A stretch of DNA of 64,000 nucleotides, from IMG/VR virus record IMGVR_UViG_3300009180_000025, one strand, 5' to 3'. The notes under the pieces were generated by a model, which did not search any database, had not been told where the DNA came from, and saw nothing but the letters and a program-made list of their open reading frames with translations. The first letter of the stretch is position 1. The number at the start of each line of letters is the position of its first letter. Positions 5,831-32,255 of the stretch are shown here, piece by piece. Origin of the DNA: an uncultured virus (IMG/VR IMGVR_UViG_3300009180_000025) (Duplodnaviria > Heunggongvirae > Uroviricota > Caudoviricetes). A program made the position numbers and the translations under genes.

Positions 5831-6473
5831 ATGCCCATTTCCTTTCTACACACCACCAACATTTTCCGCAATGAGGTTGAGTAAAATGTGTTTTTCTACT
5901 TTCACAACTTCTCGTGATTGGAAAAAGCGTATCAGTTAATCCATAATAGTTATACAATTCGGCGATAGCTTTCTTATTCACATTAGCAAAAGGAACATAT
6001 GAGTTCTTTCTTTTGATGGGCTTTATGCCTAAAGATTTTTCTCTATTAGCCATGCCATCCCAGCCATTGTCAAGTACAAGTTTGACGTCAGCATCTGGGT
6101 TTTCAGTTATTCCAGTGAAGTGAGTTTGTATAATGCCGTTATTTCTCAATAGTCTTGTATACTCAGTTAGTTCTTCGGCATAAGTGTCAGGATTAACTAA
6201 TTCAGGTTTTATTTGGTGAATATAGAATTGCACTCCAACTTGTTTTTCGATAAATCCAATTACTCTGTGAGCAAAAATATGTTGGTAAGGTTTGGCCGCA
6301 TTAATGGCTGTGAATGGAATCAGATCTATGTCTCGCACATCTCTTTTATACAAGGCTAACATGTACGACAGGATCGCGCTGTCTGCTCCTCCTGAAATCT
6401 TTATTCCAACTTTAGAATATTTCTCAGGAACATCGATGATTATTTCACCCTGAGACGTTTCAACTTTAATCAT
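5814..6473 (-). CDS. QueC-like PP-loop ATPase
   Basis: ISGGADS PP-loop; TRSC...HCGKCWWCVER zinc site. Confidence 0.8.
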   Translation of the reverse strand: MIKVETSQGEIIIDVPEKYSKVGIKISGGADSAILSYMLALYKRDVRDIDLIPFTAINAAKPYQHIFAHRVIGFIEKQVGVQFYIHQIKPELVNPDTYAEELTEYTRLLRNNGIIQTHFTGITENPDADVKLVLDNGWDGMANREKSLGIKPIKRKNSYVPFANVNKKAIAELYNYYGLTDTLFPITRSCESRKTHFTQPHCGKCWWCVERKWAFGRLD

Positions 6474-8977
6474 CCAAAGAACCCTTCAATAGATGCTTTC
6501 TTTTCAGTCTGCCATCCAATCGCATCGAGGATCGTCTTGAGAGGATCGACGAAAGTTTTAGCATATTGCAGCTCATAGTCTATATATGTTTCAAGACCAA
6601 GCTCAGGAGGTAGAGCGCCAAGTGTTGCAATAACGTTTTCGCGGATTGGATTAGGAAGTTTCATATAGCAGAACTTAATCTTGTCGCCTTCTTTGATTAG
6701 TTCATAGCGATTATTGAGTTTCTTTTGCTTGATGAAGTGATTGTACAGAAGAGCACCACGAACTTGAATAGGCGTGCCTTTCCTATAAATTCCATCACGA
6801 TCACCATATTCGCCGAGACCTTTGCAGCCACGAGGGAACGCGACTTCTTCGTACGGGAGCTTATAGAACTTCTTACGGAATTCATCGATGAATTCTACTA
6901 CGTCTCGTTCAGACTTTTCAATGATAATCTTGATACACTTCTTGATGTTTTCGCGACAGGCTTGAGGTGTCGATGATCTTACTGCTTCGATTCCAACAAT
7001 CTTAATCTTAGGTTCAGAGTAAGCAACACCTTCGTTGTTCCACACATTCAAGATGTAGTGCTTCTTCGCGGTCCATATACCTTTATCGGCGATGGCTTCA
7101 CGCTTCATCTTCATCTTTTGAGAGTAGGCATTAACATATCCGCTAAGGCGCCCATAGCATAACTCAATATAAGGTTCAAGCTTCCCATCAATAGCCTCGT
7201 CCAAGAATTTGACGATTTCAGGTGTAGGATGCTTCTCGAGGCCGCATTTATTGACCAACGAGTCAAGCGTAATGTACATAGAATCCGTATCGCATGCAAT
7301 GACATAGTCTTTGTCTTTCGTTTTAAAGAGTTTGTTTAGATACTTATTCATATCGCGCGCGATCCACATAATCGCCAACTGACCAGAAAGAGTGATAGAC
7401 TCAGCAAGAGTGTCATCATACCAACGAAAATATTTATTCGATAAAGCACCATAAGCTGAGTTCAATTGGATCTTTCGCGCAAGTTGCATATTGTGGTTCT
7501 GCGCAATGATCTTTTCAAGTTCAGGAGTAGGTGTCTTCTCGTATTGTTGTTTTGCTTCGAGCATTCTATTCTTATACACGACGCGATCGTTATACATTTT
7601 TTCCATGAGCTTAGGAAGAAATCCTTGTTTACTGCGATCAAACATAACACCTGAACCAGTAACCGCTACGTTTCTGGCAATAATCTCATTCTTAATTTGT
7701 GGTTCGTCGAGGTAGCCATCCATGATCCTTTCGACTGAGGTTTCTTCACTGAGTGGAAGTCTGCCGGCGAAAGTTTCAGGAGAGATGTTGTATTGCATAA
7801 TTAGATGAGGGTAGAGAGAATTCAAGTCGAATGACACAACCCACTTGTGCATGCCTAAGATAGGATCTTTAACGTAGCCACCAACAATGTTCTTGTCTTT
7901 CTTTGACTGTTTAGTTTGTGGAATGACGACGTGTTGACCAATTAGATAGTTGTGAATGATCACATCCCAGATGCGAACGGATCCAAAAACATCTTGGTAG
8001 TTTACCTTTGCGTCGTAGGCAATAGCAAACACCTGCTCAATTAACTTAAGCTTATCGTCGAGCTTTGCAACGATCTCGACATCGCGGATGTTATACTCAA
8101 TAAACTTTTGGAAGTCATTCCTGTAAAGCTCGAGCAAAGAACCGTGTTCCGAATAGTCGATCTTTTGAATGCCGAGTTCAATCTGACCGATATAGTCGAG
8201 ACGATAAGACTCTTGGTTCGTGAATGAAAACTTTTTGTAAGCTCGCATATAGTCGAGCGAAGTGATACCCATGATGTCGTAGAACTTAGTTCCCTGATCA
8301 TCTCGATCCTCCACCATATTCCATGGCGAAAGCTTTTTGTACATCTCACCGCCAAGAATTCGTTGAACTCGGTTAACGATATATGGAATATCAAACCCAT
8401 CGATGTTCCAACCGGTGACTACGTCAGGCGATAACCAATCTGATCGCCATAGATCTAGAAACTTGAGAAGAAGCCGCATCTCATCTTCACACTTGAAGTA
8501 CTTAATCTTCTCGTTATCAGTTACAAACTCGCCACAACCCAATACAATGTAGATGTCGTTTTTCTTTATGGTGATCGCCGTGATAGGTTTTTCGGCTGTA
8601 TAAGGATCTGGAAATCCATCGTCAGAAGCAACCTCAATGTCGATGTTAACGACTGACACCATCTTTGGATCATAGTCGATCTCGCCGGTGTAGTAATCAT
8701 TGAGGAAAGGATATAGCCATTGCGTCATACCGCAGATTTCAAACCCATCTACGTTTGCGTATTGACGAGCAAAGTCTCGAGCTTCATTTGGACGATCGAA
8801 GTAGATCTTATCCATAGCCTTACCCTGCAGAGTTTTAAACTCTGCATCTGTTCGCTTTGAATTTACGAAGAGATAAGGCTTGCATGGAATTTTGCGCTGA
8901 ATTCTTTCACCGTCTTCAAATCCACGGAGAAAGATTGTGTCATAATGTAAGAATGCGTTTGTATAGAACTTTGTCAT
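6470..8977 (-). CDS. gp43: Family B DNA polymerase (T4 gp43-like)
   Basis: DIEV exonuclease motif, SFDLNSLYP, KIQLNSAYG, CDTDS; start trimmed to MTKFY. Confidence 0.98.
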   Translation of the reverse strand: MTKFYTNAFLHYDTIFLRGFEDGERIQRKIPCKPYLFVNSKRTDAEFKTLQGKAMDKIYFDRPNEARDFARQYANVDGFEICGMTQWLYPFLNDYYTGEIDYDPKMVSVVNIDIEVASDDGFPDPYTAEKPITAITIKKNDIYIVLGCGEFVTDNEKIKYFKCEDEMRLLLKFLDLWRSDWLSPDVVTGWNIDGFDIPYIVNRVQRILGGEMYKKLSPWNMVEDRDDQGTKFYDIMGITSLDYMRAYKKFSFTNQESYRLDYIGQIELGIQKIDYSEHGSLLELYRNDFQKFIEYNIRDVEIVAKLDDKLKLIEQVFAIAYDAKVNYQDVFGSVRIWDVIIHNYLIGQHVVIPQTKQSKKDKNIVGGYVKDPILGMHKWVVSFDLNSLYPHLIMQYNISPETFAGRLPLSEETSVERIMDGYLDEPQIKNEIIARNVAVTGSGVMFDRSKQGFLPKLMEKMYNDRVVYKNRMLEAKQQYEKTPTPELEKIIAQNHNMQLARKIQLNSAYGALSNKYFRWYDDTLAESITLSGQLAIMWIARDMNKYLNKLFKTKDKDYVIACDTDSMYITLDSLVNKCGLEKHPTPEIVKFLDEAIDGKLEPYIELCYGRLSGYVNAYSQKMKMKREAIADKGIWTAKKHYILNVWNNEGVAYSEPKIKIVGIEAVRSSTPQACRENIKKCIKIIIEKSERDVVEFIDEFRKKFYKLPYEEVAFPRGCKGLGEYGDRDGIYRKGTPIQVRGALLYNHFIKQKKLNNRYELIKEGDKIKFCYMKLPNPIRENVIATLGALPPELGLETYIDYELQYAKTFVDPLKTILDAIGWQTEKKASIEGFFG

Positions 8978-8983
8978 AACTTT

Positions 8984-9012
8984 ATAATAATCCAAACTCA
9001 CCAATTTGTCAA
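8984..9012 (-). promoter_or_regulatory. Promoter TTGACA-N17-TATTAT for gp43
   Basis: -10 box lies 6 nt before the ATG. Confidence 0.6.
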
Positions 9013-9014
9013 CT

Positions 9015-9040
9015 AAAAAGAGGGGGAAAATCCCCCTCTT
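9015..9040 (-). terminator. Rho-independent terminator
   Basis: AAGAGGGGGA-TTT-TCCCCCTCTT followed by a T-run. Confidence 0.8.
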
Positions 9041-9067
9041 AATCACTTTAGTTATAGACTATAGTCT

Positions 9068-10772: not shown

Positions 10773-11813
10773 TCACCGTACGAATTGCTTCTCGAAGTGG
10801 TCATGATTTACTGAACAGGTCTTGGCGCACATCATCAACTTTCCTTCGGCAATTGATGGTGCGCCCCAAGATTTTTCAATCTTTTCGAAGAAACCGCTTT
10901 CAAAAACTCCCCTGATGCCATGAACTTTGGCACTAATTTCATCTTTATCATCGATGATATGTTTGAAAAGTGGACTGTCTTTATAGTTTTCAACTTCTGA
11001 ATCATACATCGCAGGTCCGCCTAGCCAACAGCATGGGACCACTAAACCTTCGGCGCTGATATACAGAGACTTCTGTTTAACAACTTTACAGCCAATCTTA
11101 GTATTGTCTAAGAACTCATCCCAACTTCCAAATTTTTCTATTGCTTGATTTTTAAATTCGTTTACTTCATGAACGAATTCTTTCTTCTGTGGTTGACTCA
11201 GGTTCTTATAAGACATCTTTCCAGCAGGCCAGCGATTTGTACGCTTGGGGATGAAAGACTTAACACCAAGTTTTTTAGCTAATTCTCGTGCTTCTTCAAC
11301 CTGGTGTTCGTTGTGCTTAAAGACAAGAAAGTGCCATTCGGCGTTTCCACCGGCACCAATAAAAGATTCCATAGCATTAATAACACGATCCCATTGAACG
11401 TTTTCACGATAAATGTGATTGGTGTCTTCGAGTCCATCTACAGAAAAAGTTACTCCTCCTCTGTATAATACGGAGGCTAAGTCTTTCCACCAGTCTGAGT
11501 TGCGCGCACCACCATTCGTAAACATACTTAAATTCATCGATGGATTGGTATACCTGAAGTGTTCGAACACTTCAAGCGTATCTTTAGCCATGATAGGATC
11601 GCCATAGTTGCCGCACATAAACATTATTGAAAGTTGCTTAATGAAATCTTTTTCAAAGATATCTTTGCAATCTTGAAGTGTCAGTTCGCTGTTCGTAAGA
11701 TGCTGCAGCATAGAACCATTAGGCCCACGATTTCTAGCGCACATTGAACAACCTGCCTGACACTTCTCAGTTATCTCGAGGTGCAGTGTTTTTATGTCTT
11801 CATACTTATACAT
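10773..11813 (-). CDS. Radical SAM protein with SPASM/twitch-type C-terminus
   Basis: CQAGCSMC, CGNYGDP, TNGG, SVDG, PCCW, CAKTC. Confidence 0.9.
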   Translation of the reverse strand: MYKYEDIKTLHLEITEKCQAGCSMCARNRGPNGSMLQHLTNSELTLQDCKDIFEKDFIKQLSIMFMCGNYGDPIMAKDTLEVFEHFRYTNPSMNLSMFTNGGARNSDWWKDLASVLYRGGVTFSVDGLEDTNHIYRENVQWDRVINAMESFIGAGGNAEWHFLVFKHNEHQVEEARELAKKLGVKSFIPKRTNRWPAGKMSYKNLSQPQKKEFVHEVNEFKNQAIEKFGSWDEFLDNTKIGCKVVKQKSLYISAEGLVVPCCWLGGPAMYDSEVENYKDSPLFKHIIDDKDEISAKVHGIRGVFESGFFEKIEKSWGAPSIAEGKLMMCAKTCSVNHDHFEKQFVR

Positions 11814-19085: not shown

Positions 19086-20156
19086 TTAGAAAAAAGACTG
19101 TCTTTGGCCTTCACGGTGTAGTTCAGCAGTAACACAATGAGTACCACCATCCCAGAAGAACCTATGTCTCATTGGAGCTATATGTGGAGTTATGCCATAA
19201 CGTTCAAATGCTTTAAACGCCTGTTCGTTATAGGATCCTACGATGACGTTTTTTGGATCTACCATTAGAACGTTAACATCGAAGATAGTTTCCTCAACGT
19301 ATCCGACCCAGTCTTTAAGCCAGTGCTCAACATATTCTATGATATCATCATCTTCAGATACTCCTGGGATAAACCACTTTCCATGGTTTTTCGACTTAAG
19401 AGTCATCCATTCGCGCATTGAATTCATTCTATTTTGTTCAAAATAAACTACTTCCCAATCTGGAAAAGTCTTGTCATACGCGTCTGCGTCGTACGCGCTG
19501 AAAATAAGTCCCGGCTTTAGAGGACTAAAGACCCCATCAATATGCCCACCCGTGGTAACAGCATGCGTATTATAGTCTTGGAGATAGGTATTCTTCATTA
19601 TGTCAATGGAATCTAAGACACGCCAATCAGTCATCTTATGTTTAGTACCAAAGAATAGGTCTTTACCAATCCTGAAAATACCGTTAACCTTGATCCAGGC
19701 TAAGTCTTCGTCGCTCTGATTGTTAATAACCGTATTACCTTTTGAGGCTACGTAGTCTAAGATACCCTGCCAACATACGTCAAAGTTTACAATTTTATCA
19801 TGATTTGACCAGTTGTTAACTTTCTGATTCACTCTAAAGTAAGGAAAAAGAAAGAACTTATCGCCAATCATAATCATTTGATCGCGTGGAATAGAACTTA
19901 CTGGCGCTGGAATGGGAATATTCTTATCGATGTATTCCTGTGGTACTACGTTTGGAACATCTGGCCGCAATACTTCTACGTCAAAAGACTTTAATACTTT
20001 GATTAGAGATTGATAGTCTTCTTCGGTTTCAGTAGCTATCTTTTCGAAAAGATTCCTCATCTTCGAATTCTTCATAAACGAATAAAATTCTGGAGGATAG
20101 TTTTTACCGACTACGCAAACTTTTAGCGGATCCCATTCCTGGTGTACACTGAGCAT
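19086..20156 (-). CDS. Amidinotransferase (glycine/inosamine-phosphate amidinotransferase-like)
   Basis: EWDPLK, PRD, GHIDG, DVN, WDGGTHCVT catalytic motifs. Confidence 0.85.
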   Translation of the reverse strand: MLSVHQEWDPLKVCVVGKNYPPEFYSFMKNSKMRNLFEKIATETEEDYQSLIKVLKSFDVEVLRPDVPNVVPQEYIDKNIPIPAPVSSIPRDQMIMIGDKFFLFPYFRVNQKVNNWSNHDKIVNFDVCWQGILDYVASKGNTVINNQSDEDLAWIKVNGIFRIGKDLFFGTKHKMTDWRVLDSIDIMKNTYLQDYNTHAVTTGGHIDGVFSPLKPGLIFSAYDADAYDKTFPDWEVVYFEQNRMNSMREWMTLKSKNHGKWFIPGVSEDDDIIEYVEHWLKDWVGYVEETIFDVNVLMVDPKNVIVGSYNEQAFKAFERYGITPHIAPMRHRFFWDGGTHCVTAELHREGQRQSFF

Positions 20157-21666: not shown

Positions 21667-22604
21667 GTGAACTCCACTGACATCATGACTTCAGTTAGAA
21701 AGGCTGCCGTATTGATCTCATGATCGGCTACAAACGCAGCTTGATATTGATATTTGGCAATAGTAAGTACGAGTTCGGGGATCGACTTTGGACCAACTTT
21801 CTCATAGGCAGTATCATAGAATTTGCGGAAGAGTGTAGAAGAATCCATATCGGAGTTCTCACCAACCCACTTACGCATCTCGCCAAACTTTTTCTGTTTT
21901 AGAATGTTAATCAGATCAGAAAAAGCAGATTCGCTATAATTAGCAAAAATACCGGTATCGATAGTCCCATTTACAGAATAGCGCTGTAGTTCGTTAAGGA
22001 CGCGGCGCCAGTCGGGAAGGTAACGCTGAATGAGTTCGGCGATTACAGTCTTATCATACTTCACTCCATTTCCATCGAGAATTGAAAGTACGCGTTTGAA
22101 GAATTGTGTTGCGAGTCGAGGAAGATCCGCTTTGGAAATTTTGAACTCGACCACGGAACAGCGAGAGTGAAGGGGTTCAATGATTCTGTTTTTAAAGTTA
22201 CAGGTAAGTATGAACCCACAGTTCCTTGAATATTCTTCCATGAAATTACGTAGAGCCGGCTGTGTTGAGTTTGCATTAAGGTAGTCGGCTTCGTCCAAGA
22301 TGACGTATTTTCTTCCGCCAGTAAAAGATACTGAGGAAGCAAATTGCAGGATTTCGTTACGGAGTGTGTCGATGTTTCCATTCATACTACCATTAATTAC
22401 AATATAATCGGCCCCGATCTGCTCGAGCATAGCCCGAGCGACCGTAGTTTTACCAACACCAGCGCCACCCGTCAAGAGTAGATTTGGGATTTCTTTATTC
22501 TCCACGAATTTCCGGAAGGTATTTTTCAATTCTTCCGGAAGCACGCAGTCTTCGATAGTCTTTGGTCGATATTTTTCTACCCAAAGAAACTCTTCCATGA
22601 TCAC
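21663..22604 (-). CDS. gp44: Clamp loader large subunit
   Basis: WVEKYRP, GVGKTT, DEAD, SRC. Confidence 0.97.
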   Translation of the reverse strand: MIMEEFLWVEKYRPKTIEDCVLPEELKNTFRKFVENKEIPNLLLTGGAGVGKTTVARAMLEQIGADYIVINGSMNGNIDTLRNEILQFASSVSFTGGRKYVILDEADYLNANSTQPALRNFMEEYSRNCGFILTCNFKNRIIEPLHSRCSVVEFKISKADLPRLATQFFKRVLSILDGNGVKYDKTVIAELIQRYLPDWRRVLNELQRYSVNGTIDTGIFANYSESAFSDLINILKQKKFGEMRKWVGENSDMDSSTLFRKFYDTAYEKVGPKSIPELVLTIAKYQYQAAFVADHEINTAAFLTEVMMSVEFT

Positions 22605-23263
22605 CCCTGATATTTGCTATTGGACTCAGTAGCTACATAATAACTAATTTTATCGGAAGTGTACAGGGCTAATCCTTGCGATGAGATCTTTACGTTGTAG
22701 TTTGCCGGAATAAGCTTAGTAATATTATCGGCTTTAAAGAACATATCGAAGTGCTTGTCAGTTTTACCAACATCGATGCTAAAGGTATCGCCAGTCGAGT
22801 TCTTAGGGTTCAGGGCGTATACGCGAATAACCTCTTCATCTCCTTGAACACTAATATCTGGAACTTGAAGAACGCCAGTAGCTCGTACGACTTTCTGAAG
22901 TTCTTCCTGAGTAATGTTGAAGTCGATCTCAGGTTCTGGAAACCCAATTTCTTTTTCAGGAGGAGCAACAATCATAGTAGGCTCAGCATATGTGTAACTG
23001 AGTTGTTGATTGCCGGATTTGATAAGCATAGACTTTTCTTCGAACTCAATTTCAGGATCATTGAAAAGCGATAGAACACCGAGAAACTTTGTGAGTTCAT
23101 AGATGGCGAACTCACGCGGGAATGTTTCTGTTACTATAGCTTTCGCAAAAATTGATTTGTGTTGCGAAATGGTAGATAGTGTCGATCCTGGACGAACCAG
23201 GATCGACGGGTTAATAGTCGCGAAGTTTTTTAAGATCGCGATTGTATTGTCACTTAGTTTCAT
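22601..23263 (-). CDS. gp45: Sliding clamp
   Basis: MKLSDNTIAILKNFATINPS; synteny. Confidence 0.95.
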   Translation of the reverse strand: MKLSDNTIAILKNFATINPSILVRPGSTLSTISQHKSIFAKAIVTETFPREFAIYELTKFLGVLSLFNDPEIEFEEKSMLIKSGNQQLSYTYAEPTMIVAPPEKEIGFPEPEIDFNITQEELQKVVRATGVLQVPDISVQGDEEVIRVYALNPKNSTGDTFSIDVGKTDKHFDMFFKADNITKLIPANYNVKISSQGLALYTSDKISYYVATESNSKYQG

Positions 23264-23279
23264 AATGTATAGTCTCCTG

Positions 23280-24146
23280 TTATTTCTTTACTTTTGAAGA
23301 TGCGATTTGTGATGGATCGGCCGTAGCAGAAGCACCAATTGATGCTAGAGCTGAAAGCTTTCCGCCGAAGGTATAGAAACCTGCGTGTTGCAAGTGCATC
23401 CATGGGCACATCCAGACTTTCATCCCGGTTTTACGGGTATTCTGACAGAAGAGATAATCTTCAGACAGGTAGCGCTCAGACTCAGGATCAATTTCAGCTT
23501 GGAAATACATGCCAATCTTACGTGTGCCGTCGAACTCAGCTGTACGTACATGATCAGGTTTATACATGATAAGCGGGAACTTCCTTGCATATTCTTCAAA
23601 AGTTTCGCGCCGGATCATCATGAAACCCGTACCAATCTCAAGAACTTCAGCAGGTTCGTCTAGACGAATAGATTTTGAACCTTCGCCATTCTCCATGACC
23701 GGATTGAAAACAAAGTCACCAACAAAGTCTTCAAGAACAGATGGATTCTCGTCAGCCACACCTTTGTCAACGGCCATCTTGATCTTTTCCCAAGTGATAC
23801 ACTTCTTAGGATAAGCACCACCGATGATGTCATAAGGAGACTCGTCGGTCTGAAGGGCCAATAGTGCAAGCACGTCTTGAGGATTAAATCCAATGTCTGA
23901 GTCAACAAACAAGAGATGAGTATAACCTGAACGCAGGAATTCGTCAACACAATAATTCCGTGCGCGAGTGATAAGCGATTCGTTAAACAGGAAATACGAA
24001 CGCATTTCGATGCCGTACTTTAGACACAAAGCTGTCAAGTCACACATCGACCGAGCGTACAAACCATTACACTGCCCGCCATACATTGGAGTAGCTACGA
24101 ATAGCTTTTTCTTCTGTAGTTCCTCGATTTTAATTTGGATTTCCAT
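23280..24146 (-). CDS. GT-A fold glycosyltransferase-like protein
   Basis: FVATPMYGG, ESLITRARN, FVDSDI (DxD), GTGFM, LSEDY. Confidence 0.75.
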   Translation of the reverse strand: MEIQIKIEELQKKKLFVATPMYGGQCNGLYARSMCDLTALCLKYGIEMRSYFLFNESLITRARNYCVDEFLRSGYTHLLFVDSDIGFNPQDVLALLALQTDESPYDIIGGAYPKKCITWEKIKMAVDKGVADENPSVLEDFVGDFVFNPVMENGEGSKSIRLDEPAEVLEIGTGFMMIRRETFEEYARKFPLIMYKPDHVRTAEFDGTRKIGMYFQAEIDPESERYLSEDYLFCQNTRKTGMKVWMCPWMHLQHAGFYTFGGKLSALASIGASATADPSQIASSKVKK

Positions 24147-24148
24147 TA

Positions 24149-24340
24149 TTACCACCTTTCATCGTCTATATAGACACAAATTTTAATCGGCCCCACTCTG
24201 AGTACCGCATCTAGTATTAGTCCAGGATCAGATTGGCTTTCAGTCACCTTATATGCGTAAATCTTCCACCACTTAAGAGGATTTAGAAATAAGGTGACTA
24301 TGACATCCGATTGCTTTATATATGATAAAAGCTTTTTCAC
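24149..24340 (-). CDS. Hypothetical protein
   Basis: Coupled ORF. Confidence 0.55.
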   Translation of the reverse strand: MKKLLSYIKQSDVIVTLFLNPLKWWKIYAYKVTESQSDPGLILDAVLRVGPIKICVYIDDERW

Positions 24341-24618
24341 TTATCATCCTCGTGTGTTGTATCGTGCACATAGAGCTGAATGATTGCATAATGAATTACT
24401 TTCATCAGATCTTTTCTCCAGTCGTCAGGATTACCTTTTCGACCATAGCGCTGAGCGTATTTTAAAACATTACCAACGCAAAAACCAGAACCATGTCCGG
24501 AATCGATGATGAACTCAGTCGCTTGAAACTTAGTTCGCGAGTAGTGTTCACCGTACGTATTATTAATATAATCCGTAATTTCTGAAATGTACAGGGCTTC
24601 TTTATACTTATATTCTAT
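24337..24618 (-). CDS. DUF3310-like protein (start codon uncertain)
   Basis: HYS, GFCVGNVLKYAQRYGRKG, DLMKVIHY. Confidence 0.65.
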   Translation of the reverse strand: MEYKYKEALYISEITDYINNTYGEHYSRTKFQATEFIIDSGHGSGFCVGNVLKYAQRYGRKGNPDDWRKDLMKVIHYAIIQLYVHDTTHEDDK

Positions 24619-24619
24619 A

Positions 24620-25819
24620 TTAGAAGAAAGCTTCGAGTCCTGCTGTAGCTGATTTTGTGTAATTGAATTCGTTTGTTCTTGAGAAGTTATATTGGAATCC
24701 AAGTCTTGCGTCAACAAGCTCGCGCTTTCCTTCGAGATATTGTAGGACTTCAGTTGCCATGTCATGTGCGGTGCTCACTGGTACGTTTTGACAGATGTGG
24801 TTAACGCTCTTCTTTGGATCGAGCAATTCGAAATCTTGGGGAAGACCCATAATAGTCATCGCTTCCCTATAAGTTATATAGCGGTCTTCAATCGGGTGCG
24901 TCAGCATCATTGGATAGTGACCGACAAATGCACCGATGTAGTCTCGTGGAACAATGGTTCCTCGACGCATGATATTTCCGCCTGCAGCTAATTTAGCTTT
25001 GCGTCCTTTACATCTGTCGACTTCTTTCGTATATCCATTATTACCCATCCATTTAGCTACTTCATCGTAATCAATTCCCATTCTTTCTATATATGATAAA
25101 ACATCTTGGCCACGAGCTTTTGCTGGTTCAACAGTTTTGCAGAATTCGCGGTGTGTAATTCCACCGTGAATATGCTCGAGGATAAACCGATAGTATGGAT
25201 CGTCTTTCGATGGAGTTTTCGTATTGATAGGTTCCATCTGAAAGTTTGATGTTACGCCTAAAATCGTGTCTTCAATTGTCGGGCGTTCACGTTTATAGAA
25301 GTTCAACACCGGAATTTTGTTACCTCTCCAAAAGAAGTAAAAAGCTCGTTCGCGAACTTGGGCTACACCATGAAGCAGCGACCTCGTACGGTATACTGAC
25401 ATACTATAACCATTATCTAAACCAATCTGATGAAGTTGGTTGCGAACGTTTTCACCGATTTTACCAGCAAATCCAGGAGCATTCTCGCCCCAAAACACTT
25501 CAGGTTTAAGCTCGCCGAGAACGTAGTTTGCAGTCTCAGTCATCCATCTATTATTGGGATTGTGATCTCCAAAGCCATGCGACAATTGGGATAAACCTGC
25601 ACAGGGACACACGGTACTGATGACATCGACTTTAGTCTTTGGAAAGTCTCCACGATCAATCAGGTGATATGGCACTTCATTATTATAGTAATTAACGATG
25701 TGTCTATCATTAGCCTGAAAAGGTTCGTAAGAAGCTAACCACTCAGGGCGAGACCCAAACGCTTTCTCAGAAGCAAGAGTTTCACCCCCGATAAGTGGTA
25801 CGATTGTAGCGTGTTTCAC
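24620..25819 (-). CDS. DNA cytosine-C5 methyltransferase-fold protein
   Basis: Motif IV CPC, VI ENA, VIII QVRER, IX REAMTIMGLP; motifs I and X atypical. Confidence 0.8.
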   Translation of the reverse strand: MKHATIVPLIGGETLASEKAFGSRPEWLASYEPFQANDRHIVNYYNNEVPYHLIDRGDFPKTKVDVISTVCPCAGLSQLSHGFGDHNPNNRWMTETANYVLGELKPEVFWGENAPGFAGKIGENVRNQLHQIGLDNGYSMSVYRTRSLLHGVAQVRERAFYFFWRGNKIPVLNFYKRERPTIEDTILGVTSNFQMEPINTKTPSKDDPYYRFILEHIHGGITHREFCKTVEPAKARGQDVLSYIERMGIDYDEVAKWMGNNGYTKEVDRCKGRKAKLAAGGNIMRRGTIVPRDYIGAFVGHYPMMLTHPIEDRYITYREAMTIMGLPQDFELLDPKKSVNHICQNVPVSTAHDMATEVLQYLEGKRELVDARLGFQYNFSRTNEFNYTKSATAGLEAFF

Positions 25820-27048
25820 TTAACTTTTCCGATCATATTGAATATGCTGTCAAAGACTGCATCTGCATCTTGGTGTGATTTATAGAACTCGTATGCTTTC
25901 TCGCGATACTCGTTACGCATCCCGTCGTCTTTATTTAGCGCGGATATCAAGTCTGCAGATTGCTGCATGTTCTCACTAGATAGCCAGATAGTACCACTAT
26001 CTGCGCATTCTGTCAAGGGTATACCTAGTACTCGATGGGTACATGCATCACCATAACCTTGGTGAAATACTGGAATTGTACCAGTAGCTACAACCTCACA
26101 GTGCGTATACTCAATTGATTTTTCGATGAACCTTGGATCTAGAAGAGAGAGTTGATACCCGTATCCAGATTTAGACATGCGTTCAAGGATTTCATGGTTT
26201 TTAAAGAATGAGAAAACTACTGGTTTGTTTCCGTACCAATCTGTAAAGTCAGTCTTGTCTGGACTAACATTGTTTAAGTAATGGAATGAATACTTTTGCT
26301 TGAGTTCAACATAAGCTAGTGATTTCTCAATACCCTCAAGAATCGTGAGTGCATTCATCTGGCGTAAGTGCTTCTCATGGAAGTCCATCATCAATCGTGG
26401 GCCCTTCCATAGAGCCATTCGACCAATCCACCTATGACACATTTTATCGATTTGTTCGATGGGTTTCCAGTACTTCTCGCGAACTTCATCGAAGTACATT
26501 CCAGGCTGGAAGTTTAAGATTTGCTTCTTTGGAGCATCTCCACCAAAGAATCCCATGATGCCGCCAGCTTCAGACATACTCTCTACTACACCAGCAAAAT
26601 CACCAGTTGGAGAATGAGCAAACAAAACTTTAGATTTATCGATAGATTCTTTCAAACAATCGTTACGTATGATGGAGATCTTATTGTGATCGTGTTGAAA
26701 TAACACCGATGGTGCGGATATCTTATTGAGAATTTTACGGAAGTTTTCAGCAACCTTAAGATCGTAATTCTGATTCTTCTTATGTGCGAAAGGTGGAAGC
26801 GAGTTAATGATCACTAGATCACATGAGTTGCAAGCGTCTGCTACACTATCGATATTAACATCTTCTGCAAATTTTACGTACATGAGATTTGGCATGACGT
26901 GTGAGTTAACACGAGACCATGTTTTATCTTTAGAAGCAATCACTGTACATTCATGGCCGTTCTTCTTTAGATACTTTGTCATCTCAATAGTAAATTTTGA
27001 GACGCCGCATCCTTCAATGCCGCGCCCCATAAGGATAGCCACTTTCAT
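25816..27048 (-). CDS. agt: DNA alpha-glucosyltransferase (T4 a-gt-like)
   Basis: RGIEGCGVSKF, QHDH, RWIGR..WKG, ERMSKSGYGYQLS, EYTH, GTIPVF, REKAYEF match T4 AGT as recalled. Confidence 0.9.
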   Translation of the reverse strand: MKVAILMGRGIEGCGVSKFTIEMTKYLKKNGHECTVIASKDKTWSRVNSHVMPNLMYVKFAEDVNIDSVADACNSCDLVIINSLPPFAHKKNQNYDLKVAENFRKILNKISAPSVLFQHDHNKISIIRNDCLKESIDKSKVLFAHSPTGDFAGVVESMSEAGGIMGFFGGDAPKKQILNFQPGMYFDEVREKYWKPIEQIDKMCHRWIGRMALWKGPRLMMDFHEKHLRQMNALTILEGIEKSLAYVELKQKYSFHYLNNVSPDKTDFTDWYGNKPVVFSFFKNHEILERMSKSGYGYQLSLLDPRFIEKSIEYTHCEVVATGTIPVFHQGYGDACTHRVLGIPLTECADSGTIWLSSENMQQSADLISALNKDDGMRNEYREKAYEFYKSHQDADAVFDSIFNMIGKVK

Positions 27049-27115: not shown

Positions 27116-27574
27116 TCATCGTAATTCGATATTTTCATAATACATATACTCAACACCAGCTTCTTTCAGCATATTTTTGGTAGTTTCAAAAGAGTCTTTC
27201 CATTTGTTATCTACATAAGAAGGATAACACATGAATACGCGTTTAACACCGACCTGAATAACACCTTTAGCGCATTCAGAACAAAGAGGTAGTCCCCAGA
27301 TATACAGGTCAGAACCAGCTAGACTTACGCCATTCAGTGTTGCATTGTATATACAATTCTGTTCAGCATGAACAATATACTTATACTTTTGCTCTCGATC
27401 ATTAAGCCTAACGTCACTGTCATCAATTCCACGAGGAAAGCCATTATACCCTTGCGAAAGGATTTGGCCTCTAGCTCCTACTGCAACAGCACCCACTCGG
27501 GTGCTCGGATCTTTAGACCAAGTCGATACCTGCTTGGCTAGGTTAAAATAGTTTTGTGTCCAGTTATTTGACAA
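27116..27574 (-). CDS. cd: dCMP deaminase
   Basis: SKDPST.VGA, GYNGFPRG, HAEQN, PLCSECAK; probable TTG start. Confidence 0.93.
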   Translation of the reverse strand: MSNNWTQNYFNLAKQVSTWSKDPSTRVGAVAVGARGQILSQGYNGFPRGIDDSDVRLNDREQKYKYIVHAEQNCIYNATLNGVSLAGSDLYIWGLPLCSECAKGVIQVGVKRVFMCYPSYVDNKWKDSFETTKNMLKEAGVEYMYYENIELR

Positions 27575-28211
27575 GATCAAAGTGCCTTTCATATACGTGA
27601 AGTGATGCAACGTTCCAATAAATGTGTCCCGGCTCATAACCCAGGCTTTCACACATCAAGCCCAAAACATATTTCTGCCAAGCGTAATCGTTCTTATACC
27701 CAAACACAACATCGTTTGATCGCATGTATACTAGAGCGTGAAGACGATTCTCGCGGATCATATATTGTACGGTGTTTGTGCACATGAAATCGCTGCGCCC
27801 AAAAGCATTATAATCATTCCACATATTTGGTCGTGTATAGATCATCGTAGCCCGTCGAGACTCAGGGTTCTTCTTGAGTTCTTTTACTACGTTATTATAT
27901 TGTGAGGAATTTTCCTTCGACCAAATACACCAACCATAGTTTGAGTTGATATATCCACTTGGGTCTGCCACCTGTCGCCAGATAGCGGGAGGACCACCTG
28001 GAATATCGTTAACATTAAGAGACATCGACTCATACCATTCCAACTCTCGTTGAATGTAGTTTTTATCAATGGTGCCAAATATAGTCGGTTCATCTGCAAT
28101 GAAACTGGCATTCATGATCTCAAGCATCTTAACGCCTGATTTATCATTAACAAACACGCCATCTTTTAAGTGCTGCTTAAAGAACAAACGAATTTGATTA
28201 AGTGTCATCAT
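27564..28211 (-). CDS. gp42: dCMP hydroxymethylase (T4 gp42-like)
   Basis: INSNYGW, DFMCTNTVQY, MRSNDVVFGYKNDYAWQ with the cytosine-specifying Asp, SLHVYERHF. Confidence 0.9.
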   Translation of the reverse strand: MMTLNQIRLFFKQHLKDGVFVNDKSGVKMLEIMNASFIADEPTIFGTIDKNYIQRELEWYESMSLNVNDIPGGPPAIWRQVADPSGYINSNYGWCIWSKENSSQYNNVVKELKKNPESRRATMIYTRPNMWNDYNAFGRSDFMCTNTVQYMIRENRLHALVYMRSNDVVFGYKNDYAWQKYVLGLMCESLGYEPGHIYWNVASLHVYERHFDLVK

Positions 28212-30561: not shown

Positions 30562-30960
30562 TTAAAATATTTTGCGTAGAAGTCCTGGATTATCAGAGTG
30601 ATCTGGACCAACCCAACCTTCTGGTTTAATCAGGTCTGGTAGACCAATAGGATTAGGACGACTGGCTTTAATGCCAGTTTTCTTAGCCATATTAGGCTTT
30701 AGAACTGCATCCCAGGCTTTGTATGAGTCAACCGCAAATCCATCTAGGGTTCCAATAGCCACGACACATAGATCGATTAAAGCATCTACTACGTCTTCAG
30801 GATTTTCTGCGTCTTTAAGTTCATTAAGTTCTTCCATTAAAAAGTCAATGCGAAACTGCAGAAACTTCTTGAGAGTTTCGCCATCCATCTTTTCGATGAT
30901 GGGTCGAACTCCATAGTGCTCGTGCATATCGTAGATGTCTTTTACCCAGTCTTTACTCAT
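30562..30960 (-). CDS. MazG/PRA-PH-like nucleoside triphosphate pyrophosphohydrolase
   Basis: EELNEL...DVVDALIDL, NMAK, DLIKPEGW. Confidence 0.8.
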   Translation of the reverse strand: MSKDWVKDIYDMHEHYGVRPIIEKMDGETLKKFLQFRIDFLMEELNELKDAENPEDVVDALIDLCVVAIGTLDGFAVDSYKAWDAVLKPNMAKKTGIKASRPNPIGLPDLIKPEGWVGPDHSDNPGLLRKIF

Positions 30961-31490
30961 GCTATCCACTCCGGTATTTGGCGATTTGTCCATTTATGCA
31001 TTCTCTGCTTCGCTACGCGATAGTAGTTGCGATAAGACGTAACAGAGTCGTGTTCTACTTTATACTCATCCGGCATAGCCGGTGTTACTGGCGTTAGGTA
31101 TCCTACATGGATATTATGAGGAGTAGAGCGCAAAGAGTCCACTAGAGTGGCACACTTATGGACTTTACCATATCGGTAGGTGTATTCATCTAGCAAGGCA
31201 AGAAAATGAGCATAGAGCCAGTTGTAATTGTTATTCGAATTCCTGCACCACACAGCAGATGGGTGGTTAATATGTGTTGCCTGATAGAGAACGGCGTCGC
31301 GAAAGTCTGGAAGACGCCAGCGCTTAGCTTTACGGCCAGATAGAGACTGGCCGACAAACTCTTCGCCATCAATGACACGATGGGCTGTAGAAAGGAGTTG
31401 CGCGGTTTCTAGGATCATTTTGACAACATGTTTGTCAACCATCATCCGCGCGGCTTCGAATGGATCTTCACTGATATAGAAGATGTTCAC
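30957..31490 (-). CDS. Pyrimidine-dimer DNA glycosylase family protein
   Basis: MNIF...DKHVVKMILETAQLLSTAH, HINHPS, EYTYRYGKVH, AMPDEYK. Confidence 0.8.
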   Translation of the reverse strand: MNIFYISEDPFEAARMMVDKHVVKMILETAQLLSTAHRVIDGEEFVGQSLSGRKAKRWRLPDFRDAVLYQATHINHPSAVWCRNSNNNYNWLYAHFLALLDEYTYRYGKVHKCATLVDSLRSTPHNIHVGYLTPVTPAMPDEYKVEHDSVTSYRNYYRVAKQRMHKWTNRQIPEWIA

Positions 31491-31771
31491 TTGTTTTTTG
31501 TTCCTTGTTCTTTTTCTGCTTCTTCGATAGCACGGGTTAGAGCTTCATTAATCCAAGCTTCGATGTGAATTTGAAGATCACTGAATTCTTCTTGATCCAT
31601 CTTCTCTTGATCCACTGCTATCATGTTATTATTACCATCTATCTTGAAAATGTCAATAGACATTTGCATAGTTCCGTCATCATTTTCAAAAAGAAAGTCT
31701 TCATGAATTGGGATGCTGATGAAGTAGTCTTTGATCCTGAATCCAGGACGCTTATGCTGATCTAGTTCCAT
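31487..31771 (-). CDS. Hypothetical acidic protein
   Basis: Coupled ORF. Confidence 0.55.
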   Translation of the reverse strand: MELDQHKRPGFRIKDYFISIPIHEDFLFENDDGTMQMSIDIFKIDGNNNMIAVDQEKMDQEEFSDLQIHIEAWINEALTRAIEEAEKEQGTKNK

Positions 31772-32255
31772 TTAAGTACTCCTTCTGCTTTTTGAAAGCT
31801 TTCTCACGATGATATGCATTTGCTCGGCTATAGAAGATGGTGCCATCCAGGTGATCCATCTCATGCTGAATTACTCTAGCAGTAAGACCTGCTACGTTAA
31901 TCGTATCGATTCCTCCTGATGGAGTCTGAAACCGCAACCTTACTGTGTTCCAACGCTTCACCTTTACATTGATTCCTGGAAACGATAAGCAACCCTCTTC
32001 CAATAAATTCTGTTCGTCACTGTGACTGACGATTTTTGGATTGAAGCAGGCGTAGTTCTGATTCTCTCCTCGCATTACAAATACACGTAAAGGATGGCGA
32101 ATTTGATTTGCAGACAGTCCAATAGACTTATGATCATTCATAGTCTTCAACATCTCTTCAACCAATTCAAACTGGTTAACTTGCGGGTTAGTAAAATCAA
32201 ACTTAGCCGTAGGAATAGTTAGTACTGGATCAGGAAATTTTACTATCTGTGTCAT
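31752..32255 (-). CDS. def: Peptide deformylase
   Basis: GLSANQI, EGCLS, QHEMDHLDG. Confidence 0.95.
   Translation of the reverse strand: MTQIVKFPDPVLTIPTAKFDFTNPQVNQFELVEEMLKTMNDHKSIGLSANQIRHPLRVFVMRGENQNYACFNPKIVSHSDEQNLLEEGCLSFPGINVKVKRWNTVRLRFQTPSGGIDTINVAGLTARVIQHEMDHLDGTIFYSRANAYHREKAFKKQKEYLNGTRSA

What the first reader, a model, noticed from the sequence alone, without database searches (positions are those of the whole stretch)
24620..25819. C5-methyltransferase-fold enzyme with rewired SAM motifs, coupled to agt
Seen: catalytic motifs are intact (CPC, ENA, QVRER, RE...MGLP), but motif I reads VPLIGG rather than FxGxG and motif X reads CQNV rather than GN(A/S)V. The start overlaps the agt stop. 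C5 of hmC is already occupied, so ordinary methylation would be pointless on fully substituted DNA. Established: C5-MTases can activate the cytosine ring, and in vitro can remove or exchange hydroxymethyl groups. Inference: the enzyme may use a non-SAM co-substrate to modify hmC, or methylate residual unmodified C.
Basis: partly seen in the sequence, partly recalled or inferred. Interest (0 to 1): 0.75.

Follow-up and report, generated by a model that had tools for sequence, protein, structure and literature searches.

The report
Odd cytosine-methylase look-alike in hmC phages
A phage that builds its DNA with sugar-coated hydroxymethylcytosine also carries a well-conserved but unusual relative of cytosine methyltransferases, whose cofactor-binding motifs are altered, so what it does to the DNA is a real, testable open question.

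Summary
ORF 24620-25819 (-) is a 399-aa cytosine-C5 methyltransferase-fold protein (Pfam 65.7 bits; VIA Z 25.4 to M.HhaI). The catalytic Cys, ENx Glu and QxRxR are intact. Motif I reads VPLIGG and motif X reads CQNV. Its GTG start overlaps the agt stop.

These are not private quirks. In 131 sequences (130 50%-cluster representatives plus the query), PL-GG is kept in 127-129 and the motif X Gln in 129. No conserved acid sits at the end of beta-2. Sequence models do not recognise the first 50-60 residues.

The clade appears phage-only. In this sample it always sits with a dCMP-type thymidylate-synthase homologue, here with the hydroxymethylase signature. It lies at the 3' end of an interchangeable sugar/glycosyltransferase cassette. 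Agt is one option (29 of 68 loci).

The gene is accessory: a 99%-complete relative lacks it. The C-terminus copies the phage polymerase's tail, suggesting a sliding-clamp tether.

The chemistry is unresolved. I favour, weakly (0.42), methylation of cytosines that escaped replacement. Action on hmC or a non-SAM cosubstrate remains open (about 0.28). No CmoA or TET partner was found.

This scan had already noted the same clade on other DNA.

The parts
24620..25819 (-). MT-like gene, the finding: 399-aa cytosine-C5 methyltransferase-fold protein. Variant motif I is VPLIGG (7-12). Catalytic Cys73 lies in CPC. ENA is at 112-114 and QVRER at 154-158. Variant motif X is CQNV (343-346). The C-terminal tail is GLEAFF.
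25816..27048 (-). DNA alpha-glucosyltransferase homologue (agt). Its stop overlaps the MT-like start by 4 nt.
   Evidence: PF11440 247.1 bits; phrog_2888; overlap read
27116..27652 (-). dCMP deaminase homologue. The start is uncertain, because the ORF as listed overlaps the TS homologue.
   Evidence: PF00383 63.3 bits; phrog_174
27564..28211 (-). Thymidylate-synthase homologue with the dCMP hydroxymethylase signature. It has Asp at the ThyA N177 position and Asp three residues before the catalytic Cys (the L143 position). The Asp at the D169 position is kept.
   Evidence: PF00303 76.7 bits; alignment A3; residue criteria from passages of PMC13326640
28208..28594 (-). DUF1599-like ('nucleotide modification associated domain 1') gene. 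It is a conserved member of the module upstream of the TS homologue.
   Evidence: PF07659 23 bits, below the cut-off of 25; synteny
30562..30993 (-). MazG-like pyrophosphohydrolase, a candidate dCTPase. It is conserved upstream of the module.
   Evidence: PF01503 27.6 bits; synteny
24337..24765 (-). DUF3310 gene immediately downstream. The ORF as listed overlaps the MT-like 3' end by 146 nt, so its true start is uncertain.
   Evidence: PF11753 37.5 bits; phrog_480
23280..24155 (-). 291-aa phrog_1574 protein with a faint glycosyltransferase likeness. It is a backbone neighbour, present downstream in 75 of 92 loci.
22601..23263 (-). Sliding clamp (gp45-like by position and synteny with the clamp loader). 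It is the proposed docking partner of the MT-like C-terminal tail.
   Evidence: synteny; alignment A4; complex prediction gave weak support
6470..9046 (-). Family B DNA polymerase. Its C-terminus ...SIEGFFG is the model for the MT-like tail ...GLEAFF.
   Evidence: Pfam; C-termini

Best explanation
The gene encodes a catalytically competent member of a distinct clade of DNA cytosine-C5 methyltransferase-fold enzymes that appears confined to phages. The clade is an accessory add-on to phage modules that put a 5-substituted cytosine into DNA through the nucleotide pool. In this window the module is MazG-like dCTPase candidate, DUF1599, dCMP hydroxymethylase-type TS homologue, dCMP deaminase and alpha-glucosyltransferase, followed by the MT-like gene.

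Shown here: the fold; the intact catalytic residues (Cys73, Glu112, Arg156, Arg158); the conserved remodelling of motifs I and X and the missing acid after beta-2; the gene neighbourhood; and the polymerase-like C-terminal tail.

Inferred: the enzyme is tethered to the sliding clamp by that tail and works on newly made DNA. It flips a cytosine-type base out of the helix and attacks C6 with Cys73.

My committed guess for the chemistry is this. It still binds an adenosyl cofactor of the SAM type in a re-shaped pocket. It transfers a methyl group to the rare cytosines that escaped replacement by hmC. That would be a 'mop-up' that leaves no unmodified C for host restriction enzymes or for the phage's own cytosine-specific nucleases. 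C5 alkylation is chemically impossible on hmC itself, which is why unreplaced C is the only ordinary substrate.
For: Fold and family. PF00145 scores 65.7 bits against a cut-off of 22. The AF2 model has pLDDT 90.1 and pTM 0.87. VIA-align gives Z 25.4, rmsd 3.1 A over 294 residues, model 1-365 on M.HhaI 12-325, and Z 25.3 to M.HaeIII.

Catalytic residues in 131 sequences: C73 130, E112 131, N113 129, Q154 129, R156 131, R158 131.

Signs that an adenosyl pocket survives: G11 129 and G12 127 of 131; an aromatic at residue 31 in 124; Asp/Glu at residue 55 in 106. The match of these to SAM-contacting residues of canonical enzymes rests on secondary-structure register and recalled M.HhaI residue roles.

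Accessory status fits an 'insurance' role. Of 22 TS-anchored loci with at least 8 kb downstream, 16 have the gene. A 99%-complete 164-kb relative has none.

Clamp tail. The MT-like protein ends GLEAFF and the phage's own polymerase ends SIEGFFG. By eye, all 30 sequences of alignment A1 end in a like tail. In the wider clade, 32 of 131 carry a tail of this type. Another 32 of 131 end in [LIVM][FY], against 8 of 1018 background ORFs.

Complex prediction of clamp plus residues 360-399 gave weak support. The score was 0.33 and the best of 3 controls 0.00. The mark was reached by 116 of 157 solved complexes and 2 of 215 mismatched pairs. At 0.60 or under it was reached by only 18 of those 157 and by both mismatches that passed. 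The runs agree in at least 31% of contacts, and partner pLDDT is at least 38. A like clamp-peptide complex is solved (recalled), so the pass may be from memory.

One clade member (P0197) is fused to a CXXC zinc finger, PF02008 at 29.7 bits. That domain is known (recalled) to bind unmethylated CpG.
Against: The cofactor half is unlike any characterised SAM-dependent C5-MTase:
- Leu replaces the first Gly of motif I (127 of 131).
- No position from 29 to 33 carries a conserved acid; the best is 31 of 131.
- Gln replaces the motif X Asn (129 of 131). That Asn position lies next to the transferred group in the CmoX/M.HhaI comparison (PMC12783734).
- Pfam and TIGR00675 alignments start only at model positions 50-53. 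TIGR00675 scores 25 bits against a cut-off of 100.65, whereas E. coli Dcm scores 350.8 bits from model position 1.
- The first 80 residues hit no PDB chain even at E <= 10.

With a dCTPase candidate in the module, unreplaced C should be very rare, so the benefit of a mop-up is unproven. The clade was found only beside dCMP-type TS homologues, in four phage lineages. That fits a mop-up role, but it fits an hmC-directed activity equally well. No assay, no cofactor docking and no DNA chemistry was available.
Confidence: 0.42

Rival explanations
1. The enzyme acts on hmC (or glycosyl-hmC) in DNA and does not transfer a methyl group. Cys73 adds to C6 of the flipped hmC. This activates the 5-CH2-OR group for loss or exchange, by removal as formaldehyde or replacement by another nucleophile. 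The former SAM pocket is re-shaped (Leu9, Gln344, Asn345) to hold the 5-substituent or a non-SAM cosubstrate.
For: The clade is found only beside dCMP-type TS homologues. It sits directly after the sugar/GT cassette in the aquatic T4-like phages, in Pseudoalteromonas phage XG4 (TS, NTP-transferase, GT-like, unknown, MT-like) and near an AGT homologue in Bacillus phage G. The changes are conserved and lie exactly at the motif X position that selects the transferred group in CmoX. The beta-2 acid is lost. Ordinary C5-MTases form covalent complexes with 5hmC DNA and are reported to dehydroxymethylate it in vitro (passages of PMC11347137).
Against: No natural precedent was found. No cosubstrate-supplying gene is constantly linked. 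The gene is dispensable in a 99%-complete relative that keeps the TS module and a cassette. Residues that could still hold an adenine are kept. Removing hm groups would undo the phage's own protection. The synteny comes largely from one phage lineage, so the locus counts are not independent.
Confidence: 0.28
2. It transfers a group other than methyl from a SAM analogue or another adenosyl donor onto unreplaced cytosine. This would parallel CmoX, which uses carboxy-SAM, but with a neutral polar group read by Gln344.
For: CmoX shows that changing the motix X Asn (to Arg350) re-aims a C5-MTase fold to another donor (PMC12783734). Here the same position is an invariant Gln (129 of 131). The model matches the CmoX structure 8yf3 at Z 23.4, rmsd 3.7 A, 284 aligned.
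Against: The protein lacks both CmoX markers used in that paper: SPPC and the Arg. No CmoA was found. TIGR00740 gave 0 of 5 relatives' records while the controls rang in 8 of 14 genomes. No such domain appeared among the 70 window ORFs scanned with Pfam. No other donor-making enzyme is constantly linked.
Confidence: 0.12
3. It is an ordinary sequence-specific anti-restriction 5mC methylase, or a methylase of host DNA or RNA. It only travels with the hmC module because both are backbone genes of one phage lineage. The motif changes are neutral divergence.
For: Most PF00145 proteins are plain methylases. Most loci examined belong to one syntenic T4-like lineage. The gene can be lost.
Against: Neutral drift does not give 127-129 of 131 conservation of the variant residues across clusters that are under 50% identical. 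Unrelated carriers also pair it with a dCMP-type TS: the S-TIM5 group, and Bacillus phage G with an AGT homologue 2.6 kb away. A plain methylase has no substrate in fully hmC-substituted phage DNA. The 13 hits in 185,579 species genomes are all MAG contigs; 10 show the same phage TS module and the other 3 have too little upstream sequence to tell. None was looked at for a restriction partner.
Confidence: 0.1

Closest known systems
Canonical bacterial and phage DNA cytosine-C5 methyltransferases (M.HhaI, M.HaeIII, E. coli Dcm; PF00145 / TIGR00675)
   Same: Same fold: Z 25.4 to M.HhaI and 25.3 to M.HaeIII. Same catalytic Pro-Cys, ENx Glu, QxRxR and motif IX RE..G.P.
   Different: Motif I has Leu for the first Gly. 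There is no conserved acid after beta-2. Motif X has Gln for Asn. The N-terminal 50-60 residues are not recognised by Pfam, TIGR00675, hhalign against Dcm, or any PDB sequence. The variable region between motifs VIII and IX is longer and helical. There is a C-terminal polymerase-like tail. The clade appears phage-only.
CmoX, the phage DNA cytosine C5-carboxymethyltransferase (PMC12783734; PDB 8yf3)
   Same: A phage C5-MTase-fold enzyme whose donor choice is set at the motif X Asn position. Structural match Z 23.4.
   Different: CmoX has SPPC and Arg350 and depends on a CmoA carboxy-SAM synthase. This protein has VCPC and Gln344, and no CmoA was found in the window or in five relatives' records.
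Phage C5-MT + TET/5mYOX + glycosyltransferase pathway (PMC8256090, search listing only; bioRxiv 10.1101/2023.12.21.572611, passages)
   Same: A C5-MTase homologue lies next to DNA glycosyltransferases in a phage base-modification cluster.
   Different: In that pathway hmC is made after replication, by methylation followed by oxidation. Here hmC is predicted to come from a dCMP hydroxymethylase-type TS homologue, and no Tet_JBP domain was found in the window's scanned ORFs. The genome-wide search had no positive control.
T-even glucosyl-hmC system (T4 gp42, gp56, cd, alpha-gt)
   Same: A TS homologue with the hydroxymethylase signature, a dCMP deaminase and a PF11440 alpha-glucosyltransferase sit in one block.
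   Different: As far as I recall, T4 has no C5-MTase-fold gene. Here the glycosyltransferase slot is a variable cassette holding AGT, GT1, GT2, Glf plus epimerase, UDP-glucose dehydrogenase or unknown proteins.
DNMT1-PCNA tethering (recalled knowledge)
   Same: A cytosine methylase-fold enzyme carries a short clamp-binding peptide, so that it follows replication.
   Different: Here the peptide is at the extreme C-terminus and copies the phage polymerase's own tail. Binding is only weakly supported in silico.

Membership tests
DNA cytosine-C5 methyltransferase (PF00145 / TIGR00675) | Passes the curated family score | tested here: inconclusive
   Pfam PF00145 scores 65.7 bits against a cut-off of 22, which is met, but only over profile positions 50-322. 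NCBIfam TIGR00675 scores 25 bits against a cut-off of 100.65, which is not met. The control E. coli Dcm scores 350.8 bits from model position 1.
DNA cytosine-C5 methyltransferase (PF00145 / TIGR00675) | Two-domain C5-MTase fold | tested here: met
   AF2 pLDDT 90.1. VIA Z 25.4, rmsd 3.1 A, 294 aligned to M.HhaI. Z 25.3, rmsd 3.0 A, 276 aligned to M.HaeIII.
DNA cytosine-C5 methyltransferase (PF00145 / TIGR00675) | Catalytic Pro-Cys (motif IV), ENx Glu (motif VI), QxRxR (motif VIII) | tested here: met
   C73 130, E112 131, Q154 129, R156 131 and R158 131 of 131. HMMER aligns these stretches with M.HhaI and M.HaeIII.
DNA cytosine-C5 methyltransferase (PF00145 / TIGR00675) | Motif I FxGxG(G) glycine loop for SAM | tested here: not met
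   The motif reads (I/V)PL(I/V)GG. Leu is at the first-Gly position in 127 of 131, and Ile/Val is at the Phe position in 115 of 131. The register is taken from the VIA alignment, model 1 to M.HhaI 12, assuming no gap in the first 12 residues.
DNA cytosine-C5 methyltransferase (PF00145 / TIGR00675) | Motif II acidic residue at the end of beta-2 (binds the SAM ribose) | tested here: not met
   Beta-2 is residues 28-30 in the model. Asp plus Glu at positions 29-33 number 1, 1, 1, 31 and 19 of 131. The exact equivalent residue could not be fixed without coordinates.
DNA cytosine-C5 methyltransferase (PF00145 / TIGR00675) | Motif X Gly-Asn | tested here: not met
   C343-Q344 aligns with the Gly-Asn of M.HaeIII and M.HhaI. 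Gln is present in 129 of 131.
DNA cytosine-C5 methyltransferase (PF00145 / TIGR00675) | Binds SAM and makes 5mC | not testable with these tools
   No ligand docking or assay was available.
CmoX carboxymethyltransferase | SPPC motif and Arg at the motif X position (criteria of PMC12783734) | tested here: not met
   The protein has VCPC and Gln344.
CmoX carboxymethyltransferase | Phage-encoded CmoA (carboxy-SAM synthase) in the genome | tested here: not met
   TIGR00740 matched 0 of 5 relatives' records, one of them 98% complete, while the controls rang in 8 of 14 genomes. Nothing similar appeared among the 70 window ORFs scanned with Pfam. The window's own full genome is not held.
Phage MT + TET/5mYOX + GT pathway | Neighbouring TET/JBP dioxygenase | tested here: inconclusive
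   No PF12851 hit among the 70 window ORFs. The search of five records found none, but nothing rang in the controls either.
T-even-type glucosyl-hmC module (context of the gene) | dCMP hydroxymethylase signature in the TS homologue | tested here: met
   Asp at the N177 position, Asp at the L143 position and Asp kept at the D169 position, in alignment A3 against a canonical ThyA of phage G. The criteria come from PMC13326640.
T-even-type glucosyl-hmC module (context of the gene) | DNA alpha-glucosyltransferase | tested here: met
   PF11440 at 247.1 bits, covering profile 1-353 of 355.
T-even-type glucosyl-hmC module (context of the gene) | dCTPase and hm-dCMP kinase | tested here: inconclusive
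   The only dCTPase candidate is a MazG-like PF01503 hit at 27.6 bits. No kinase was identified; there is only DUF3310, which some PHROGs label nucleotide kinase.

The most novel reading that the evidence does not exclude
This clade would be a natural DNA enzyme that has turned the covalent cytosine-C6 chemistry of methyltransferases onto hydroxymethylcytosine. Riding the phage sliding clamp, it would flip hmC (or its glycoside) and exchange or remove the 5-substituent, or add a group from a non-SAM donor held in the remodelled pocket (Leu9, Gln344, Asn345). The product would be a cytosine derivative not yet described. So far this chemistry is known only as an in vitro side reaction of ordinary C5-MTases.
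Probability: 0.28. Interest if true: 0.9.

Novelty: new variant of a known kind. Interest (0 to 1): 0.6.

Why it matters
C5-MTase-fold enzymes were long taken to be SAM-only methylases. CmoX (2025) showed that one changed residue in motif X re-aims the fold to another donor. Here a large, abundant clade has an invariant change at that same position together with a remodelled motif I. It has 240 clusters at 50% identity with E <= 1e-30, and more than 546 IMG/VR contigs. It appears phage-only and lives only in phages whose cytosines should already carry a 5-substituent.

Either outcome is useful. One is a clamp-tethered 'mop-up' methylase that closes the last gaps in hmC protection. The other is a new hmC-directed chemistry, of interest for epigenetic sequencing tools.

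The question is directly testable, because three cultured phage groups carry clade members.

Tried and rejected
1. CmoX-type carboxymethylation. Rejected as a membership because the protein has neither SPPC nor the Arg, and no CmoA was found.

2. MT + TET route to hmC. No Tet_JBP was found in the window ORFs. The genome-level search had no positive control, so this is only weakly excluded.

3. A Cys/His metal site formed by the extra cysteines C71 and C343. Rejected because they are not clade-wide: C71 87 of 131, C343 56 of 131, C270 20 of 131.

4. TS homologue as a 5-hydroxy-dCMP synthase. Rejected because the D169-position Asp is kept (criterion).

5. Residue-level mapping of motifs I-III onto canonical enzymes by sequence. 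This failed. hhalign against E. coli Dcm aligned only residues 63-165. The profile search of PDB aligned only from residue 62. The first 80 residues gave 0 PDB hits at E <= 10. No model coordinates were available to my scripts.

6. Reaching distant clade members' genomic context. The alignment of distant representatives was too divergent for the search for related loci. P0226 gave no locus and P0146 gave one. Searching the phage collection with distant representatives found the same three cultured groups, plus a few records (phage NatCom_9287, Methylophilales phage Melnitz, Cellulophaga phage phi18:3) with weak partial matches at 21-24% identity that I did not examine.

7. Literature. Searches found no paper describing this clade or a C5-MTase homologue tied to dCMP hydroxymethylase modules. 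Supplements were not consulted. The SSN of 5,615 CmoX candidates in PMC12783734 required the Arg, so it should not contain this clade.

8. The megablast of 10 kb around the gene against cultured phages found only a 43-nt match.
Full report
**What is there**

Its GTG shares the bases GTGA with the TGA stop of the upstream gene 25816..27048. That upstream gene is a strong DNA alpha-glucosyltransferase homologue (PF11440, 247.1 bits).

Further upstream on the same strand lie:
- a dCMP deaminase (27116..27652);
- a thymidylate-synthase (TS) homologue (27564..28211);
- a DUF1599-like gene;
- a MazG-like pyrophosphohydrolase.

Downstream lie:
- a DUF3310 gene;
- a 291-aa phrog_1574 protein;
- the sliding clamp and the clamp loader.

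The rest of the window is a T4-like myovirus: gp23, portal, sheath, terminase, family B polymerase, UvsX, UvsW and UvsY. No cultured phage is close at the DNA level. The window's own assembly is not held.

**Family and fold**

- Pfam PF00145 matches at 65.7 bits (cut-off 22), but only from profile position 50 onward.
- NCBIfam TIGR00675 reaches 25 bits against a cut-off of 100.65, again starting at model position 53. E. coli Dcm run as a control scores 350.8 bits from position 1.
- An AlphaFold2 model built on a 30-sequence alignment is confident (pLDDT 90.1, pTM 0.87).
- The model superposes on M.HhaI (Z 25.4, rmsd 3.1 A, 294 residues, model 1-365 on chain 12-325). It also superposes on M.HaeIII (Z 25.3), DNMT1 and the carboxymethyltransferase CmoX 8yf3 (Z 23.4).

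So the fold, including the N-terminal cofactor half, is that of a C5-MTase. The sequence of that half is not recognisable. The first 80 residues hit nothing in the PDB at E <= 10. hhalign against Dcm aligns only residues 63-165.

**The motif changes are a clade character**

A scan of 1.84 billion cluster representatives found 775 relatives at E <= 0.001 and 240 at E <= 1e-30. Of the 150 best I kept the 130 that are 340-460 aa long, plus the query, giving 131 sequences. I aligned them and counted residues.

| Feature | Count of 131 |
|---|---|
| Catalytic C73 | 130 |
| E112 | 131 |
| N113 | 129 |
| Q154 | 129 |
| R156, R158 | 131 each |
| Motif I: P8 / L9 / G11 / G12 | 127 / 127 / 129 / 127 |
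| Motif X: Q344 / N345 | 129 / 126 |

HMMER places Q344 opposite the motif X Asn of M.HaeIII and M.HhaI. In the CmoX paper that Asn (M.HhaI N304) is the residue replaced by Arg350, which contacts the carboxymethyl group of carboxy-SAM (PMC12783734, Results section read).

At the end of beta-2 (residues 28-30 in the model), class I methyltransferases carry the acid that binds the SAM ribose (recalled knowledge). No position from 29 to 33 has a conserved acid; the best is 31 of 131.

What is kept:
- the Gly-Gly pair;
- Ser/Thr at residue 30 (127);
- an aromatic at residue 31 (124);
- Asp/Glu at residue 55 after beta-3 (106).

New invariants are F34 (123), N37 (123) and D/E38 (127). I read this as a cofactor pocket under strong selection whose adenine side may survive. 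Its ribose and transferred-group side has been rebuilt. I could not fix residue equivalences, because no coordinates reached my scripts.

**Context**

I collected 127 loci carrying the gene. They are not de-replicated, and several are identical contigs. Of these, 68 have at least 5 kb upstream:
- 66 have the TS homologue within 8 kb upstream;
- one has it at 8.2 kb;
- the last is cyanophage S-TIM54, whose annotated ThyA lies about 2 kb away on the other strand.

The agt homologue is detected in only 29 of the 68. In the others the space between the TS homologue and the MT-like gene holds other sugar genes. These include GT1 or GT2 glycosyltransferases, UDP-galactopyranose mutase with an epimerase, UDP-glucose dehydrogenase, or 330-400-aa proteins without a Pfam family. 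The gene therefore sits at the fixed 3' edge of a variable sugar cassette.

All 13 hits in one genome per 185,579 prokaryote species are MAG contigs. Ten of them show the same phage TS module; the other three have too little upstream sequence to tell. The ESM Atlas neighbours are 100% viral.

Among cultured phages only three groups carry relatives:
- The S-TIM5 cyanophages (32% identity).
- Pseudoalteromonas phage vB_Psh_XG4 (31%). Its gene order is TS, NTP-transferase, GT-like, unknown, MT-like.
- Bacillus phage G gp301 (26%). It is 2.6 kb from an annotated alpha-glucosyltransferase (PF11440, 41.4 bits) and near a glucose-1-phosphate thymidylyltransferase. Phage G has a second TS homologue 13 kb away. 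gp301 keeps CPC, ENAP and a Gln in motif X, but has a more ordinary motif I.

**The TS homologues**

I aligned them with the canonical ThyA of phage G.
- The TS homologues of this window, XG4, phage G (second copy), S-TIM54 and four further loci all have Asp at the ThyA N177 position. That marks dCMP as substrate.
- This window, XG4 and the phage G second copy also have Asp at the L143 position.
- All keep Asp at the D169 position.

By the criteria in PMC13326640 (two sections and passages read) this is the 5-hydroxymethyl-dCMP synthase signature, not the 5-hydroxy-dCMP one. S-TIM54 has Cys at the L143 position, so its product (methyl or hydroxymethyl) is open. bioRxiv 10.1101/2024.12.05.627091 (passages) shows that deaminase-linked Asp-type TS homologues can also make 5-methyl-dCMP.

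**The dependence runs one way**

I anchored on the TS homologue instead (80 loci). Of the 22 loci with at least 8 kb downstream, 16 have the MT-like gene and 6 do not. Two of the six keep the surrounding synteny with three unknown cassette genes. One of those belongs to a 164-kb record rated 99% complete that has no clade member anywhere. The gene is thus an accessory of hmC-type modules, not a required step. I found no clade member outside such modules.

**The C-terminal tail**

I tested that here.
- The protein ends GLEAFF. The phage's own polymerase ends SIEGFFG.
- The last 10 residues of the model are of low confidence.
- By eye, all 30 sequences of alignment A1 end in a [LIV]xx[FY][FLMIV] tail.
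- In the wider clade 32 of 131 have such a tail, against 103 of 1018 background ORFs, so that pattern is loose.
- Another 32 of 131 end in [LIVM][FY], against 8 of 1018. This recalls the C-terminal bacterial beta-clamp motif (recalled knowledge).

A complex prediction of the clamp with residues 360-399 gave weak support:
- score 0.33, best of 3 controls 0.00;
- the mark was reached by 116 of 157 solved complexes and 2 of 215 mismatches;
- at 0.60 or under it was reached by only 18 of the 157 and by both passing mismatches;
- the runs agree in at least 31% of contacts, and partner pLDDT is at least 38.

A clamp-polymerase-peptide complex has been solved (recalled), so the pass may reflect likeness only. 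I regard clamp tethering as likely but unproven.

**What it does**

Shown: a DNA-type C5-MTase fold with every residue needed to flip a cytosine-type base and attack C6; a conserved, re-shaped cofactor site; and obligate company with 5-substituted-dCMP synthesis.

Not shown: the substrate and the cofactor.

Alkylation at C5 needs a C5 hydrogen, so hmC cannot be methylated in the ordinary way. Three readings remain.

(a) SAM-type methylation of cytosines that escaped replacement. I put this first (0.42) for these reasons:
- the prior for the fold is strong;
- adenine-side residues seem kept;
- the gene is dispensable;
- a replication tether suits a sweep of new DNA;
- one clade member is fused to a CXXC finger.

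(b) Action on hmC or its glycoside, using the covalent intermediate to remove or exchange the 5-substituent (0.28). Passages of PMC11347137 document covalent complexes with 5hmC and refer to dehydroxymethylation by C5-MTases in vitro. The position of the conserved changes fits this reading. So does the clade's restriction to hmC-type phages.

(c) Transfer of another group from a SAM analogue, as in CmoX (0.12). The CmoX markers and CmoA are absent.

A plain hitch-hiking anti-restriction methylase (0.10) fits poorly with the conservation of the variant residues. It also fits poorly with the recurrence of the pairing in unrelated phages.

**Comparison and novelty**

The protein works like, and is a divergent member of, the C5-MTase superfamily. 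It meets the fold and catalytic-motif criteria. It fails the canonical motif I, motif II acid and motif X criteria and the TIGR00675 cut-off. It is not a CmoX.

My six literature searches found no description of this clade. I did not open any supplements. The same clade has been noted before by this scan on other genomes. That does not raise or lower my score.

I rate it a new variant of a known kind, with interest 0.6. The structure of the problem is clear, cultured carriers exist, and either answer is informative. For now only the anatomy is established.

Noticed in passing
L064:10001-11215 and L064:11232-12422 (record G002): Two clade members lie in tandem in one phage contig. They are 37% and 50% identical to the window's protein and sit between the TS homologue and the phrog_1574 gene. 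This suggests duplication with divergence in specificity or chemistry.
   Followed up: partly
protein P0197 (598 aa, representative): This clade member has a C-terminal CXXC zinc finger (PF02008, 29.7 bits, residues 558-584). Other long members (P0177 at 768 aa, P0180 at 653 aa, P0192 at 1462 aa) have extensions without any Pfam family.
   Followed up: no
representatives P0163-P0262: Many distant clade members end in ...K-x-L-F or similar. In all, 32 of 131 end in [LIVM][FY], against 8 of 1018 background ORFs. This looks like a bacterial beta-clamp-type C-terminal motif rather than the T4-type tail.
   Followed up: partly
L161 (record G004, 164,428 bp, 99% complete); also L168: A close relative of the module (TS homologue 69% identical) keeps three unknown cassette genes, DUF3310 and phrog_1574. 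It has no MT-like gene anywhere in the record.
   Followed up: yes
window 24620-24765: The DUF3310 ORF as listed (24337..24765) overlaps the last 146 nt of the MT-like gene in another frame. Its Pfam domain starts only at residue 72, so the true start is unclear.
   Followed up: no
window 5814-6473 and 10773-11813: One protein has a partial QueC-like match (PF06508, 24.2 bits, residues 159-216 only). Another is a radical SAM protein (PF04055, 33.9 bits). Both lie in the replication region next to unknown ORFs 4557-5198 and 5177-5830. Whether they point to a second (purine) DNA modification was not examined.
   Followed up: no
window 60101-61630: A 509-aa sodium:solute symporter family protein (PF00474, 88.6 bits) is encoded in the phage window. 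This is an unusual auxiliary gene.
   Followed up: no
window 19086-20156: A 356-aa protein without any Pfam, NCBIfam or other family ends in ...QRQSFF. It is found only in the nearest relatives (83-100% identity) in the synteny table.
   Followed up: no
L063:6231-7913 (cyanophage S-TIM54): A 560-aa protein with no Pfam family lies between the dCMP-type 'ThyA' and the MT-like gene of S-TIM54. No recognisable glycosyltransferase is nearby.
   Followed up: partly
window 9252-9746 and 31752-32255: An HSP20 small heat-shock protein and a peptide deformylase are encoded by the phage.
   Followed up: no
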